Origin: the human T2T-CHM13v2.0 reference genome, Homo sapiens | Assembly (NCBI GenBank): GCA_009914755.4 | Contig: CP086569.2 | Coordinates: 32,832,001 to 32,896,000, forward strand | DNA: 64,000 bases | Direction: 5' to 3' | Shown: positions 9,220-64,000 of the stretch, piece after piece | Numbering within the stretch: the first letter of the stretch is position 1 | Layout of the letters: each line of letters opens with the position of its first letter | Position numbers and translations under genes: made by a program | The notes under the pieces: generated by a model | What the model was told of the DNA's origin: nothing | The model's input: the letters and a program-made list of their open reading frames with translations, nothing else | Databases searched by the model: none

Positions 9220-9511
9220 TTTTTTTTTAGACAGAATCTTGTCCTGTTGCACAGGGTGGGGTACAATGGCGCCATCTTTGCTCACTGCAACATCTGCCTC
9301 ACGGGTCCAAGCGATTGTCCTCCCTCAGCCTCCCAGGTAGCTGGGACTACACCACACTGGGACTACACCAGCTGCCACCAGACCTAGCTAATTTTTTGGA
9401 TATTTAGTAGTGACAGCGTTTCACTGTATTGGCCAGGATGGTCTTGATCTCTTCACCTTGTGATCCCCTTGCCTTGGCCTCCAAATTTGCTGGGATTACA
9501 GGCCTGAGCCA
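9220..9511 (-). mobile_element. Alu, unit 1. Near-full-length, minus orientation, lacking about 12 bp of the 5' end, with a 16-bp internal tandem duplication.
   Basis: The + strand reads as a reverse-complemented Alu: a poly-T of 9, then 'agacagaatcttgtcc...gctcactgcaac...cctcagcctcccaggtagctgggactaca...ggccaggatggtcttgatctc...gctgggattacaggcctgagcca'. Confidence 0.93.
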
Positions 9512-10084
9512 AGATCCATATTTTTTAAATGAAAAAAAATTTCAAAGGTACTCTGCTTGGTACAATAATCAAATGTATAAACTGAGGAATAAAACATAAC
9601 CATGAAACCTACTTATAACTGCATATGGAAAATACAGAGGATAATTTTTTAAATAACATATTGTTAAAGCCTTAACTAGTAATTTGAAGAGTTGGCATTT
9701 GAAAGGCCAGTATGAATATACCTTCACAGCAGCAACACAGGTTCCCCATGAGAAAAAGCAAACTCAGGGAAAATAAAACCACAAAGGTTCAATCTCTTCT
9801 GACCTTTGAAAGACACAGCACAGACAGTGGTCCTTAGGACGAAGAGCAGGAGACCCCTAATTCCGTCACCATGGCGATAGGGCATAAACATTGCTGGGTA
9901 AGGGCACAATCCACATTGTGAGCTCCAACTGCTGCCAGGAAGACAGCAGTGCTTTTACATAGACCGAAAGGTCATTGAAGGCTCAGAGTTTTGTTTCAAG
10001 AACTGAATCCCAAGCCCACACGTTATTAGGCTGCGCTTCTTAAAACAAGTTATGAGATGGGAAAAAGGGCACCCACATACATAC
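9512..10084. other. Representative non-Alu, non-AT spacer of the DYZ2 unit, about 573 bp and moderately GC-containing. It is repeated once per unit.
   Basis: This is complex, non-repetitive-looking sequence between the Alu 5' end and the AT-rich segment. It contains the recurring 61-codon minus-strand ORF. The same segment appears in all 23 units. Confidence 0.8.
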
Positions 10085-11639
10085 GTATACATTATGTATA
10101 TAATAATATACAGTATCATATATATAATATATATAACCTATGTATAATATTGTTTTACATCCTGAATCTTATGTTATATATATTGCATAAAATATAATAA
10201 TTGATAATATATAAGTTTTATATTTATTCAATATGACATATAGTATATATTATAATTTATGACATATATAATATATGTTATATATCATATATAGAATATA
10301 TTATACGGTTAATATACGTATTAAATATAAATTATACATTATATATATTATATATAATATATCTGTTATATATAATACCCATTATGCATAATATATATAT
10401 TATGTCTATGTTATATGTAGTATAAAACAACATATAATAATATATAATTGTATATATAAAATGCGACATATAATATATATTATATTTTATGACATATGTA
10501 ATATATATTATATATTATATATAATACGTTGTATGTATAATACCTATATTAAATATATATTATATGACTATGTTATTAATTACATGTCACATGTGTTATA
10601 TATTATATATTTTACATAGAATATACGGGTTACATACAATATATACTATGTTACTTATAATGTATAATTTATTACATGTAAAATAAAGAATGCAATATAT
10701 TATGTATAATTCATAATATACAATATGTGGAATGTGATATATATAACATATAATATATGATATATGATATAGAGTATATGATATATAACATACAATATAT
10801 GATACCTAATATATATGCTATACAATATATATTTTATGATACGTATTCTATATGTTATATATTCTGTTATATATAACTGTTTGAAATTATATATAAATGT
10901 ATATTATTTTAGGTAAATATGTAATATAATATATATAACTTTATAATATATTATATATAACTATATATTATGTTATATATACTTTTATAACATAATTTAC
11001 ATAAAATATCATAATATAATATATATTATATTATTTCATATTACATAATATATATTACATATCACCCAATATAAGTAACATACATAATATTATAATATAG
11101 ATTATATTATGTTATATTAAATATCATATATATCATGTATCATATATTCTGTAATATATATTATACATTATATAATATGTATGTTGTCTATTATGTGATA
11201 TATATAACTATATATATAATTATATTATTATACATATAACTAGATAAACATGTAATTCTACATATTTTCATTTATAATGTAAAGAATTATATAATCATAT
11301 ATAATTATTTATATTCTATAAAAAATTATATCATTATATAAATTATAATATATAAAAATTATAATATGTACTACAAACATATATATTATATATCATATAT
11401 GATATATTACCTTTGTTATATATCATAATACATATAAATGTGTATTATGTTATCTATAATTATATAATTTCATATATAAGATGTATAATATGTATTATTT
11501 ATTATATACGTTATGTAATATATATAGTATATATAAGCTGACACAGGATAAATATTATATACTATGACATATAAAATATATGAGGTTATATGTTACATAT
11601 AAGGCATAGCACATAACATGTAATATATATCATATATAA
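10085..11639. repeat. Representative AT-rich (HSat1B-like) segment of the DYZ2 unit, about 1555 bp
   Basis: This segment is very AT-rich with degenerate internal subrepeats and only a few conserved CpG-containing motifs ('tacggttaatatacgtatt', 'atgcgacat', 'ccggttac'). It is repeated with the unit period. Confidence 0.8.
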
Positions 11640-11931
11640 TTTTTTTTTAGACAGAGTCTTGTCCTGTTGCACAGGGTGGAGTACAATGGCGCCATCTTTG
11701 CTCACTGCAACATCTGCCTCACGGGTCCAAGCGATTGTCCTCCCTCAGCCTCCCAGGTAGCTGGGACTACACCACACTGGGACTACAGCAGCTGCCACCA
11801 GGCCTAGCTAATTTTTTGGATTTTTAGTAGTGACAGCGTTTCACTGTATTGGCCAGGATGGTCTTGATCTCTTCACCTTGTGATCCCCTTGCCTTGGCCT
11901 CCAAATTTGCTGGGATTACAGGCCTGAGCCA
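11640..11931 (-). mobile_element. Alu, unit 2
   Basis: Same element, one period after the previous copy. Confidence 0.93.
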
Positions 11932-60290: not shown

Positions 60291-62418
60291 AGATCCATAT
60301 TTTTTAAATGAAAAAAAATTTCAAAGGTACTCTGCTTGGTACAATAATCAAATGTATAAACTGAGGAATAAAACATAACCATGAAACCTACTTATAACTG
60401 CATATGGAAAATACAGAGGATAATTTTTTAAATAACATATTTTGAAAGCCTTAACTAGTAATTTGAAGAGTTGGCATTTGAAAGGCCAGTATGAATATAC
60501 CTTCAAAGCAGCAACACAGGTTCCCCATGAGAAAAAGCAAACACAGGGAAAATAAAAACACAAAGGTTCAATCTCTTCTGACCTTTGAAAGACACAGCAC
60601 AGACAGTGGTCCTTAGGACGAAGAGCAGGAGACCCCTAATTCCGTCACCATGGCGATAGGGCATAAACATTGCTGGGTGAGGGCACAATCCACATTGTGA
60701 GGTCCAACTGCTGCCAGGAAGACAGGAGTGCTTTAACATAGACCGAAAGGTCATTGAAGGCTCAGAGTTTTGTTTCAAGAACTGAATCCCAAGCCCACAC
60801 GTTATTAGGCTGCGCTTCTTAAAACAAGTTATGAGATGGGAAAAAGGGCACCCACAAACATACGTATACATTATGTATATAATAATATACAGTGTCATAT
60901 ATATAATATATATAACCTATGTATAATATTGTTTTACATCCTGCATCTTATGTTATTTATATTGTATAAAATATAATAATTGATAATATATAAGTTTTAT
61001 AATTATGCAATATGACATATGGTATATATTATAATTTATGACATATATAATATATGTTATATATCATATATAGAATATATTATACGGTTAATATACGTAT
61101 TAAATATAAATTATACATTATATATATTATATATAATATATCTGTTATATATAATACCCATTATGCATAATATATATATTATGTCTATGTTATATATAGT
61201 ATAAAACAACATATAATAATATATAATTGTATATATAAAATGCGACATATAATATATATTATATTTTATAACATATGTAATATATATTATATATTATATA
61301 TAATACGTTGTATGTATAATACCTATATTAAATATATATTATATGACTATGTTATTAATTACATGTCACATGTGTTATATATTATATATTTTACATAGAA
61401 TATACCGGTTACATACAATATATACTATGTTACCTATAATGTATAATTTATTACATGTAAAATAAAGAATGCAATATATTATGTAAAATTTATAATATAC
61501 AATATGTGGAATGTGATATATATAACATATAATATATGATATATGATATACAGTATATGATATATAACATACAATATATGATTCCTAATATATATGGTAT
61601 ACAATATATATTTTATGATATGTATCCTATATGTTTTATATTCTGTTATATATAACTATTTGAAATTATATATAAATGTATAATATTTTATGTAAATATG
61701 TAATATAATATATATAACTATATAATATATTATATATAACTATATATTATGTTATATATATTTTTATAACATAATTTACATAAAATATCATAATATAATA
61801 TATATTATATTATTTCATATTACATAATATATATTACATATCACCCAATATAACTAACATACATAATATTATAATATAGATTATATTGTGTTATATTAAA
61901 TATCATATATATCTTGTATCATATATTCTATAATATATATTACACATTATATAATATGTATGTTGTCTATTATGTGATATATATAACTATATATATAATT
62001 ATATTTTTATACATATAACTAGATAAACATGTAATTCTACATATTTTCATTTATAATATGTAGAATTATATAATCATATATAATTATTTATATTCTATAA
62101 AAAATTTTATCATTATATAAATTATAATATATAAAAATTATAATATGTACTACAAATATATATATTATATATCATATATGATATAGTACCTTTGTTATAT
62201 ATCACAATACATATAAATGTGTATTATGTTATCTATAATTATATAATTTCATATATAAGATGTATAATATGTATCTTATATTATATAAGTTATGTAATAT
62301 ATATAGTATATATAAGATGACACAGGATAAATATTATATACTATGACATATAAAATATATGAGGTTATATGTTACATATAAGGCATAGCACATAACATGT
62401 AATATATATCATATATAA

Positions 62419-62710
62419 TTTTTTTTTAGACAGAATCTTGTCCTGTTGCACATGGTGGGGTACAATGGCGCCATCTTTGCTCACTGCAACTTCTGCCTCA
62501 CGGGTCCAAGCGATTGTCCTCCCTCAGCCTCCCAGGTAGCTGGGACTACACCACACTGGGACTACACCAGCTGCCACCATGCCTAGCTAATTTTTTGGAT
62601 TTTTAGTAGTGACAGCGTTTCACTGTATTGGCCAGGATGGTCTTGATCTCTTCACCTTGTGATCCCCTTGCCTTGGCCTCCAAATTTGCTGGGATTACAG
62701 GCCTGAGCCA
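62419..62710 (-). mobile_element. Alu, unit 23
   Basis: Same element at the unit period. Confidence 0.93.
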
Positions 62711-64000
62711 AGATCCATATTTTCTAAATGAAAAAAAATTTCAAAGGTACTCTGCTTGGTACAATAATCAAATGTATAAACTGAGGAATAAAACATAACC
62801 ATGAAACCTACTTATAACTGCATATGGAAAATACAGAGGATAATTTTTTAAATAACATATTTTGAAAGCCTTAACTAGTAATTTGAAGAGTTGGCATTTG
62901 AAAGGCCAGTATGAATATACCTTCAAAGCAGCAACACAGGTTCCCCATGAGAAAAAGCAAACACAGGGAAAATAAAAACACAAAGGTTCAATCTCTTCTG
63001 ACCTTTGAAAGACACAGCACAGACAGTGGTCCTTAGGACGAAGAGCAGGAGACCCCTAATTCCGTCACCATGGCGATAGGGCATAAACATTGCTGGGTGA
63101 GGGCACAATCCACATTGTGAGGTCCAACTGCTGCCAGGAAGACAGGAGTGCTTTTACATAGACCGAAAGGTCATTGAAGGCTCAGAGTTTTGTTTCAAGA
63201 ACTGAATCCCAAGCCCACACGTTATTAGGCTGCGCTTCTTAAAACAAGTTATGAGATGGGAAAAAGGGCACCCACAAACATACGTATACATTATGTATAA
63301 AATAATATACAGTGTCATATATATAATATATATAACCTAGGTATAATATTGTTTTACATCCTGCATCTTATGTTATTTATATTGTATAAAATATAATAAT
63401 TGATAATATATAAGTTTTATAATTATACAATACGACATATAGTATATATTATAATTTATGACATATAAAATATATGTTATATATCATATATAGAATATAT
63501 TATACGGTTAATATACGTATTAAATATAAATTATACATTATATATATTATATATAATATATCTGTTATATATAATACTCATTATGCATAATATATATATT
63601 ATGTCTATGTTATATATAGTATAAAACAACATATAATAATATATAATTGTATATATAAAATGCGACATATAATATATATTATATTTTATAACATATGTAA
63701 TATATATTATATATAATACGTTGTATGTATAATACCTATATTAAATATATATTATATGACTATGTTATTAATTACATGTCACATGTGTTATATATTATAT
63801 ATTTTACATAGAATATACCGGTTACATACAATATATACTATGTTACCTATAATGTATAATTTATTACATGTAAAATAAAGAATGCAATATATTATGTATA
63901 ATTTATAATATACAATATGTGGAATGTGATACATATAACATATAATATATGATATATGATATACAGTACATGATATATAACATACAATATATGATTCCTA

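What the first reader, a model, noticed from the sequence alone, without database searches (positions are those of the whole stretch)
9220..64000. The DYZ2 array is not uniform. It shows variant domains and locally shared private variants, but no fixed multi-unit higher-order repeat.
I can read out several patterns.

(a) Units 2-13 carry 'gagtctt...gggtggagtac...gcaacatctgcc' in the Alu, 'gcaaactcagggaaaataaaaccac' in the spacer and 'atacagtatcat' in the AT block. Units 14-23 carry 'gaatctt...gggtggggtac...gcaacttctgcc', 'gcaaacacagggaaaataaaaacac' and 'atagagtgtcat', and they gain an extra 71-codon ORF.

(b) Within the second domain, units 14-17 have 'agcgatggtcc', 'ataaatgcgacat' and 'agaagtatataatc'. 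Units 18-23 revert to 'agcgattgtcc' and add 'ccggtttcatac' and 'atatcataatttac'.

(c) Adjacent pairs share private changes. Units 7/8 share 'ccttgagaaaaatcaaactc', 'ctgaccattgaaag', 'cttctcctgtttcacag' and, in the AT block, 'atatgttatatgactgtgtt'. Units 12/13 share 'ggacagtatgaatatacctccaaagc', 'ttaagtaacat', 'gaaagctac' and 'gataggactatg', and they have periods of 2414-2415 bp.

(d) The non-adjacent units 5 and 10 share 'gaatgtaccggtt', 'ctgagtaatatttt', 'tctctatgttttatattctctt' and 'atctgctatatataatacgcatt'.

(e) Unit 1's Alu has the domain-2 markers 'gaatctt' and 'ggggtac' although its neighbours are domain 1.

Taken together this is the pattern of local amplification or unequal exchange plus occasional longer-range conversion. 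It gives a usable set of markers for tracing how Yq12 blocks expanded.
Basis: seen in the sequence. Interest (0 to 1): 0.55.

Follow-up and report, generated by a model that had tools for sequence, protein, structure and literature searches.

The report
Edge of a Y-chromosome DYZ2 satellite array
The window crosses a DYZ1-to-DYZ2 satellite boundary on the human Y long arm. The "variant domains" are the already published pattern of older, divergent repeat units at an array's edge giving way to freshly amplified standard units, so the finding is real but ordinary.

Summary
From 8470 to 64000 there is a 2.42-kb tandem array with 23 Alu-bearing units. Its variants are strongly clustered in space. 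Divergence rises smoothly with unit distance and shows no periodic dip, so there is no higher-order repeat.

What it is: 14-8469 is DYZ1 (3544-bp period, 98% identity), so the array is the edge of a Yq12 DYZ2 block.
- Units 1-12 and the left part of unit 13 (to about 39137) form an edge zone. They differ from each other by 2.3% on average and by 1.4-2.5% from a consensus of 44 independent DYZ2 copies.
- From about 39195 onward the units are the standard genome-wide type. They differ by 0.45-0.8% from that consensus (the truncated unit 23: 1.1%).
- So "domain 2" is the norm and "domain 1" is the unusual one.
- About a third of the edge-unit differences are alleles shared with much more divergent HSat1B copies. 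They are therefore old variants, not new mutations.
- Units 4, 7 and 12 are hybrids, with the left part like the next unit and the right part like the previous one. This is the signature of one-unit unequal exchange.
- Units 5 and 10 share a tract of 1-2 kb without their neighbours, which looks like conversion.

Hallast 2023, Rhie 2023 and a 2026 preprint already describe this behaviour. Interest is low.

The parts
14..8469 (+). DYZ1 (HSat3-type, GGAAT-derived) array: about 2.4 copies of a 3544-bp unit
   Evidence: TRF reports pentamer-derived periods. Self-identity at a shift of 3544 bp is 98.0%, against 70% or less at all other shifts tested (5-4200 bp).
8464..9219 (+). First DYZ2 unit, truncated. 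It starts at consensus column ~893, the border between the GC-richer part and the AT-rich block. It runs to about column 988 and then jumps to about column 1755-2420, an internal deletion of about 770 bp.
   Evidence: Local alignments. BLAST of 8526-9219 against consensus 1727-2420 gives 97.7% identity. It carries domain-1 alleles at columns 1858-2279.
9220..39137 (+). Edge zone ('domain 1'): units 1-12 plus the left part of unit 13. This is an older, rarer DYZ2 variant, and the units are heterogeneous.
   Evidence: Mean pairwise divergence is 2.28%. Units differ by 1.4-2.5% from the outside consensus. They carry the domain-1 allele at nearly all of the 17 discriminating sites. They carry 8-10 of 117 alleles diagnostic of the diverged class.
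39137..39195 (+). Interval inside unit 13 where the sequence switches from edge type to standard type (a single recombinant joint)
   Evidence: Unit 13 has domain-1 alleles up to column 895 and domain-2 alleles from column 953 onward. Units 12 and 13 are identical over columns 228-952.
39195..64000 (+). Standard, recently homogenised DYZ2 units ('domain 2'): the right part of unit 13 through the truncated unit 23
   Evidence: Mean pairwise divergence is 1.10%. Units 14-22 differ by 0.45-0.78% from the outside consensus. They carry no diverged-class alleles, except two in unit 18.
16479..18897 (+). Unit 4, a hybrid: unit-5-like on the left and unit-3-like on the right, with the breakpoint at 17650-17739
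   Evidence: Triplet scan: 40 of 48 informative sites fit the hybrid model, and 0/2000 permutations do as well.
23734..26153 (+). Unit 7, a hybrid: unit-8-like on the left (Alu and spacer) and unit-6-like on the right (AT block), with the breakpoint at 24371-24528
   Evidence: Triplet scan: 44 of 59 sites fit, 28/2000 permutations. See also the variant matrix.
35828..38241 (+). Unit 12, a hybrid: unit-13-like on the left and unit-11-like on the right, with the breakpoint at 36709-36781. Units 11 and 12 share a 5-bp deletion at about 34941 and 37356.
   Evidence: Triplet scan: 56 of 64 sites fit, 0/2000 permutations. Indel table.
19916..20901 (+). Tract in unit 5 that is identical to 32011-32996 in unit 10, five units away. 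The flanking units are unrelated, so this is a conversion-like copy.
   Evidence: 989 identical columns. Units 5 and 10 differ at 14 columns in all. Units 4/9 differ at 40 columns and units 6/11 at 64.
42565..47287 (+). Youngest one-unit duplication: 42565-44868 is identical to 44984-47287
   Evidence: 2308 aligned columns without a difference at lag 1.
50878..50893 (+). Patch in the spacer of unit 18 carrying the old-type alleles (T at 50878, C at 50893) inside an otherwise standard unit
   Evidence: The same Alu-plus-spacer combination is seen in the outside copy L005.

Best explanation
The window spans a DYZ1-to-DYZ2 block boundary in the heterochromatin of the human Y long arm (Yq12). The DYZ2 array has two age layers.

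**Edge layer.** The first ~30 kb next to DYZ1 (a damaged partial unit, units 1-12 and the left part of unit 13) belong to an older, now rare version of the repeat. This layer is homogenised only slowly.

**Inner layer.** From 39195 inward, the units belong to the standard version that has recently been amplified in place.

**How variation is shuffled.**
- One-unit-offset unequal exchange between sister chromatids, or equivalently tandem duplication of one unit length in a shifted register. Each event leaves a hybrid unit between its two parents, as in units 4, 7 and 12, and less clearly units 10 and 19.
- More rarely, non-reciprocal copying of about 1-2 kb between non-adjacent units, as in units 5 and 10 and perhaps the unit 18 spacer.
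- Exchange keeps linear order, so the two layers stay separated by one sharp joint inside unit 13.

**Shown:** the spatial structure, the hybrid units, the polarity relative to outside copies, and the absence of a higher-order repeat.

**Inferred:** the molecular mechanism, that is sister-chromatid exchange rather than replication slippage, and that the edge type is ancestral.
For: - **Identity.** The left flank has a 3544-bp period at 98% identity. The array unit is 2.42 kb and consists of an Alu fragment, a GC-richer part and an AT-rich block. This matches the descriptions of DYZ1 and DYZ2 in Hallast et al. (10.1101/2022.12.01.518658) and Rhie et al. (10.1101/2022.12.01.518724).
- **Spatial structure.** Permutation tests and the neighbour-joining tree.
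- **Edge versus core.** Units 1-12 differ by 1.4-2.5% from the consensus of 44 outside fragments, unit 13 by 1.2% and units 14-22 by 0.45-0.78%. At 16 of 17 discriminating sites the outside majority is the domain-2 allele. The domain-1 AT-block alleles are almost absent outside: 0/16, 0/16, 0/15, 1/15 and 1/20.
- **Older layer.** Units 1-12 carry 8-10 of 117 alleles diagnostic of 88-93%-identity HSat1B copies, whereas units 14-23 carry none (unit 18 carries two). Of the edge-unit differences from the standard consensus, 28-44% match alleles common in that diverged class, against 2.9% expected for random substitutions (per-site table).
- **Unequal exchange.** Hybrid units and identical lag-1 tracts of up to 2308 columns.
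- **Conversion-like tract.**
- **Independent array edges.** Nine outside contigs have a 97-99% unit directly abutting an 88-93% unit in tandem register. In L029 an 87% unit abuts HSat3.
Against: - Only 23 units from one side of one array are visible. The true centre of the array and its far edge are not seen.
- The outside copies are contaminant contigs from unknown people and unknown chromosomes. Short-read assemblers collapse satellites, so these copies may be consensus-like or chimeric.
- The diverged class is heterogeneous (90-99% identity among its members), and its location (Y array edges or acrocentric arms) is unknown. Using it to infer which allele is ancestral is therefore provisional.
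- Divergence does not fall steadily across units 1-12. The pattern is a step, not a gradient.
- Sister-chromatid exchange, replication slippage and intrachromatid events give the same sequence signature.
Confidence: 0.8

Rival explanations
1. The edge units are not an older layer. They are ordinary standard units that have piled up new mutations, because homogenisation is weak at array ends.
For: Units 1-12 carry many private changes, 3-22 per unit, against 1-10 in units 14-23. About 60-70% of their differences from the standard consensus do not match the diverged class. Hallast et al. phrase the pattern as divergent units 'accumulating' towards the periphery.
Against: All of units 1-12 share essentially the same alleles at the 17 discriminating sites, and these recur in independent diverged copies. 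28-44% of edge differences match diverged-class alleles, against 2.9% by chance, and units 14-23 match essentially none. Independent new mutations would not do this. Both processes probably contribute.
Confidence: 0.15
2. Gene conversion, rather than unequal exchange, generates most of the shared-variant blocks, including those in adjacent pairs.
For: Units 5 and 10 share a tract without sharing neighbours. Unit 18 has a short old-type patch. A 2026 pedigree study classed 6 of 35 de novo Yq12 events as gene conversion (PMC13252187).
Against: The adjacent-pair blocks together span a full unit length and have exactly the left-like-next, right-like-previous arrangement that a one-unit duplication predicts. 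Identical tracts of 2.3 kb at lag 1 are longer than typical conversion tracts; the same preprint reports a median of 542 bp, but for Y palindromes. The two layers are not interleaved.
Confidence: 0.12
3. The pattern is an assembly or sequencing artefact, such as mis-joined or collapsed reads in a near-identical satellite.
For: Yq12 is among the hardest regions to assemble. The window's provenance and read support are unknown. The transition-to-transversion ratio of private changes is unusually low, 103:114.
Against: Variants form long, coherent blocks at fixed unit positions. Many alleles are found again in unrelated public sequences. Private differences amount to about 0.4% of bases, far above plausible consensus error. 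Periods are regular.
Confidence: 0.04
4. There is a hidden multi-unit higher-order repeat, for example of 5 units, blurred by later changes.
For: A k-mer distance peak at 12095 bp, which is 5 units, and 99.5% identity between units 5 and 10.
Against: That peak comes from this single pair. Units 4/9 and 6/11 are at background divergence. The lag profile is monotonic with no dip at any lag from 2 to 11.
Confidence: 0.03

Closest known systems
DYZ2 / HSat1B arrays of human Yq12, as described by Hallast et al. 2023 and Rhie et al. 2023
   Same: - A unit of about 2.42 kb made of a truncated Alu, a GC-richer part and an AT-rich block, alternating with 3.5-kb DYZ1.
- Most units more than 98% alike.
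- Units in the interior of an array more alike than units at its ends.
- Local expansion and contraction, attributed to unequal exchange.
   Different: Nothing in kind. This report adds single-unit resolution for one array edge: hybrid units with mapped breakpoints, one sharp joint between two variant types, and sharing of edge alleles with more divergent HSat1B copies.
Layered structure of centromeric alpha-satellite arrays (homogeneous core, divergent flanks)
   Same: The young, homogeneous repeat version lies inside, and older, more divergent versions lie towards the edge. Hallast et al. draw this parallel themselves.
   Different: There is no multi-monomer higher-order repeat here. The unit is a 2.4-kb composite. 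The age step seen in this window is small (about 1-2%), whereas centromere flanks are far more diverged (my own recollection, not tested here).
Classical unequal-crossover model of tandem-repeat evolution (Smith 1976; concerted evolution)
   Same: Similarity decays with distance. Hybrid units lie between parental units. Linear order is preserved.
   Different: The model alone does not predict the unit 5/10 tract or the unit 18 patch, which need a conversion-like step. I cite the model from memory and did not read it here.

Membership tests
DYZ2 (HSat1B) satellite | Tandem unit of about 2.4 kb (consensus 2,420 bp) | tested here: met
   Periods are 2411-2420 bp and the 23-unit consensus is 2420 bp. 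Hallast et al. give a 2,420-bp consensus.
DYZ2 (HSat1B) satellite | Composite unit: a 5'-truncated, diverged Alu, a GC-richer (HSATI) part and a block that is more than 85% AT | tested here: met
   The consensus shows an Alu-like stretch after a poly-T, then a GC-richer part up to about column 890, then an AT-rich block. GC content alternates between 0.20 and 0.27. There is a weak hit to the Alu-derived mir-1268 family (33.9 bits, below the gathering score). Similarity to the Alu consensus was judged from memory.
DYZ2 (HSat1B) satellite | Close sequence identity to other human DYZ2 copies | tested here: met
   Human-contaminant contigs are 97-99.8% identical to the window consensus. Rhie et al. 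report such HSat1B contamination in microbial databases. No reference human genome was available to the tools.
Yq12 location (rather than an acrocentric HSat1B array) | Directly adjacent to DYZ1, the roughly 3.5-kb nested HSat3 repeat that is Y-specific | tested here: met
   3544-bp period at 98% identity in 14-8469, directly abutting the array.
Higher-order repeat (HOR) array | Identity peaks at a fixed multiple of the basic unit | tested here: not met
   Monotonic lag profile with no dip at lags 2-11.
Edge-versus-core homogenisation pattern of Yq12 arrays (Hallast 2023) | Units near the array end are more divergent from the consensus and from each other than units further in | tested here: met
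   1.4-2.5% for the edge units against 0.45-0.78% further in, relative to the outside consensus. Pairwise divergence is 2.28% against 1.10%. Only one side of the array was seen, to a depth of about 55 kb.

The most novel reading that the evidence does not exclude
The edge zone may be a preserved older stratum of DYZ2, keeping alleles otherwise seen only in HSat1B copies that are 8-12% diverged. If so, each Yq12 block would carry a readable age stratigraphy.

In addition, breakpoints may cluster at the border between the GC-richer part and the AT-rich block. The DYZ1/DYZ2 junction is at consensus column ~893, and the old-to-standard switch in unit 13 is at columns 895-953. This would hint at a breakage or exchange hotspot that also seeds block boundaries.
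Probability: 0.2. Interest if true: 0.4.

Novelty: already known. Interest (0 to 1): 0.15.

Why it matters
It matters little beyond documentation. The pattern has been published for Yq12: divergent array edges, a homogenised interior, unequal exchange and occasional conversion.

The unit-level dissection does give concrete breakpoints and a small set of rare edge alleles: columns 1584, 2010, 2064, 2111 and 2279 of the unit. These could tag this particular block edge across Y haplogroups.

It also shows a cheap way to decide which satellite variant is the common one, using human-contaminant contigs in microbial databases.

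Tried and rejected
- **Higher-order repeat:** rejected by the lag profile and by the unrelated neighbours of units 5 and 10.
- **The 71-codon ORF as a feature:** rejected. It is a by-product of the spacer SNPs in a non-coding satellite.
- **The 7-bp deletion shared by units 20 and 23:** I checked whether it is the 'ACATACG' length variant mentioned by Hallast et al. It is not. It removes TATATAT inside a TA run, and all units keep ACATACG at about column 860.
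- **First estimate for the junction-proximal partial unit:** the multiple alignment gave about 94% identity. This was an alignment artefact caused by an internal deletion of about 770 bp. The true identity is 97.7%.
- **Contig BNJT01002008.1 (L019, L024, L037):** its units are only 80-97% identical. I could not tell whether it is a noisy long-read assembly or a truly old array, so I did not use it for inference.
- **Rfam scan of one unit:** only a sub-threshold hit to an Alu-derived miRNA.
- **Absolute dating of the duplications:** not attempted, because the mutation rate in this heterochromatin is uncertain.

Full report
**1. What is in the window**

TRF and k-mer spacing show two satellites.
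- Positions 14-8469 are a GGAAT-derived repeat. Self-identity is 98.0% at a shift of 3544 bp and 70% or less at every other shift tested. This is the nested 3.5-kb unit of DYZ1.
- From 8470 to the end of the window lies a 2.42-kb tandem array. It has 23 Alu starts at 9229, 11649 ... 62428, with periods of 2411-2420 bp.
- The 2420-bp consensus has, in order, a poly-T, a diverged antisense Alu fragment, a GC-richer part up to about column 890, and an AT-rich block.
- This matches the published description of DYZ2/HSat1B alternating with DYZ1 in Yq12 (Hallast et al.; Rhie et al.).
- The window is therefore a DYZ1-to-DYZ2 block boundary.

**2. Checking the observation**

Each string sits at a single offset in the unit, and most occur in the units named. 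The errors are these:
- The AT-block markers given for units 7/8 and 12/13 lie in units 6/7 and 11/12.
- 'ctgaccattgaaag' is private to unit 7.
- 'ccggtttcatac' and 'atatcataatttac' are only in units 18-19.
- Several 'domain-wide' strings are interrupted by nearby private changes.
- The short periods of units 11-13 come from two independent 5-bp deletions plus a 1-bp deletion.

There are 129 informative and 204 singleton variable columns. The structure is far from random:
- Mean divergence rises from 1.43% at lag 1 to about 2.5% at lag 10 or more, without any periodic dip.
- Mantel r = 0.44 (0/10000 permutations).
- Neighbouring units differ by 1.43%, against 2.14 +/- 0.10% when permuted.
- Carriers of the 130 minor alleles form 184 runs, against 364 +/- 25 when permuted.
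- The correlation also holds inside each domain.

The neighbour-joining tree recovers units 14-23 (with unit 13 as sister), (5,10)+4, (6,7)+8, (11,12) and (1,2). The core observation stands: domains, local sharing and no higher-order repeat.

**3. What the 'domains' are**

The tools hold no human reference. Rhie et al. note that HSat1B is a frequent contaminant of microbial assemblies, so I scanned public collections for invariant DYZ2 words.
- The scans returned 17 'bacterial' contigs, 21 metagenome contigs and 1 IMG/VR contig.
- 44 fragments are at least 96.5% identical to the window consensus.
- Seventeen sites separate units 2-12 from units 14-23. At 16 of them the outside majority is the domain-2 allele, 276 allele calls against 65.
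- Units 14-22 differ from the outside consensus by 0.45-0.78%, the truncated unit 23 by 1.13%, unit 13 by 1.16% and units 1-12 by 1.4-2.5%.
- The domain-1 alleles in the AT block (columns 1584, 2010, 2064, 2111, 2279) are almost absent outside.
- The two Alu haplotypes (G-A-A and A-G-T) are both common outside. Unit 1's A-G-A also occurs in L009, and unit 18's Alu-plus-spacer combination occurs in L005.

So domain 2 is the standard DYZ2. Domain 1 is an unusual type that sits against the DYZ1 junction.

The switch is a single joint inside unit 13. Alleles are domain-1 up to column 895 (window 39137) and domain-2 from column 953 (39195).

The unit nearest the junction (8464-9219) starts at consensus column ~893 and has an internal deletion of about 770 bp. 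It carries domain-1 alleles.

**4. Is the edge type old or merely mutated?**

Other outside fragments are only 88-93% identical to the consensus.
- In nine contigs, such a diverged unit directly abuts a 97-99% unit in tandem register.
- In L029, a diverged unit abuts HSat3 that is 86% identical to the window's DYZ1.
- These diverged copies carry the domain-1 allele at most of the 17 sites.
- At 117 sites the diverged class differs from the standard consensus. Units 1-12 carry the diverged-class allele at 8-10 of these sites. Units 14-23 carry none, except unit 18, which has two, both in its spacer.
- Of each edge unit's differences from the standard consensus, 28-44% match an allele common in the diverged class. 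The expectation for random substitutions is 2.9%.
- At the two Alu sites that can be polarised, the domain-1 states (G in GAGTCT, A in GGAGT) match the Alu consensus as I recall it. This is my own knowledge and was not tested.

The edge zone is therefore best read as an older stratum with extra private mutations on top.

The caveat is that the diverged class is heterogeneous and its genomic location is unknown. The polarity is provisional.

**5. Mechanism**

I scanned all consecutive unit triplets.
- Units 4 and 12 (0/2000 permutations) and units 7, 10 and 19 (28/2000 or fewer) are hybrids. The left part matches the next unit and the right part matches the previous unit.
- The breakpoints are at 17650-17739 (unit 4), 24371-24528 (unit 7) and 36709-36781 (unit 12).
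- The youngest event left 42565-44868 identical to 44984-47287.
- Units 5 and 10 differ at only 14 columns and share 989 identical columns (19916-20901 against 32011-32996). Their neighbours are unrelated: units 4/9 differ at 40 columns and units 6/11 at 64. A 5-unit duplication is thus excluded, and a non-reciprocal copy is the simplest reading.
- A 2026 pedigree study classed 6 of 35 de novo Yq12 events as gene conversion (PMC13252187).
- Exchange preserves linear order. This explains why the two strata meet at one sharp joint.

Sister-chromatid exchange, replication slippage and intrachromatid events cannot be told apart from sequence alone.

**6. Comparison with what is known, and verdict**

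[quoted passage not shown] They propose that expansion and contraction homogenise the middle while divergent units accumulate at the periphery.
- Rhie et al. attribute Yq12 patterns to unequal exchange and saw sister-chromatid exchanges there.

The finding is a correct, fine-grained instance of a published pattern.

The 71-codon ORF is a trivial consequence of the spacer SNPs.

Novelty: already known. Interest: low.

The only mildly new leads are:
- edge alleles shared with much more diverged HSat1B copies;
- the coincidence of the DYZ1/DYZ2 junction (column ~893) with the stratum switch (columns 895-953) at the start of the AT-rich block.

Noticed in passing
L005 5897-6920 (NZ_HF570958.1, Nostocoides japonicum T1-X7, a 5.16-Mb scaffold): About 1 kb of human DYZ2 (98% identical to the window consensus, GC 0.37) sits inside a bacterial scaffold whose flanks have GC 0.64-0.75. 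This is human satellite contamination built into a reference-type bacterial assembly.
   Followed up: partly
L039 3-482 (IMGVR_UViG_3300008541_000063): The first ~480 bp of a 14.3-kb 'viral' contig are 99% identical to DYZ2, and the rest is unrelated sequence with GC ~0.33. This is a chimeric contig in IMG/VR.
   Followed up: partly
L028, L030, L031, L033, L034, L021, L022, L032, L036; L029 1160-1841: In these outside contigs a 97-99% DYZ2 unit directly abuts an 88-93% unit in tandem register. L030 runs 88% -> 91% -> 99% -> 99%, and L021 runs 98, 98, 98, 97, 88%. In L029 an 87% unit abuts HSat3 that is 86% identical to the window's DYZ1. These may be other array edges with much steeper age steps, acrocentric arrays, or assembly chimeras.
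   Followed up: partly
window 9220-64000 (private substitutions): The 217 single-unit substitutions have a transition-to-transversion ratio of 103:114, far below the roughly 2:1 I recall for human germline mutations. A<->T changes number 51. Only 3 are CpG transitions; the consensus has 16 CpGs. This is unexplained.
   Followed up: no
window 8464-8470 and 39137-39195: The DYZ1/DYZ2 junction falls at unit column ~893 and the old-to-standard switch in unit 13 at columns 895-953. Both are at the start of the AT-rich block. Two events are too few to call a hotspot.
   Followed up: no
window 8553 (first partial unit): The junction-proximal unit has lost about 770 bp of its AT block (consensus ~988 to ~1755). 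The deletion lies between similar ATATATA..TTTTAT motifs.
   Followed up: partly
window e.g. 12590-13023, 48864-49301: TRF finds a degenerate internal sub-repeat of about 230 bp (1.9 copies, about 75% match) inside the AT-rich block of several units (8 reported).
   Followed up: no
window 56452 and 63701: Units 20 and 23, three units apart, share a 7-bp TATATAT deletion in a TA run and cluster together in the tree. This is either recurrent slippage or the start of a 3-unit duplication that runs off the window.
   Followed up: no
window 34400-34800 and 36800-37250 (units 11 and 12, columns ~1000-1400): Units 11 and 12 share derived alleles here, yet differ from each other at 11 columns within about 390 (columns 1009-1389), several times their divergence over the rest of the AT block (6 differing columns in columns 1596-2398). 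This is a local cluster of changes of unknown cause.
   Followed up: no
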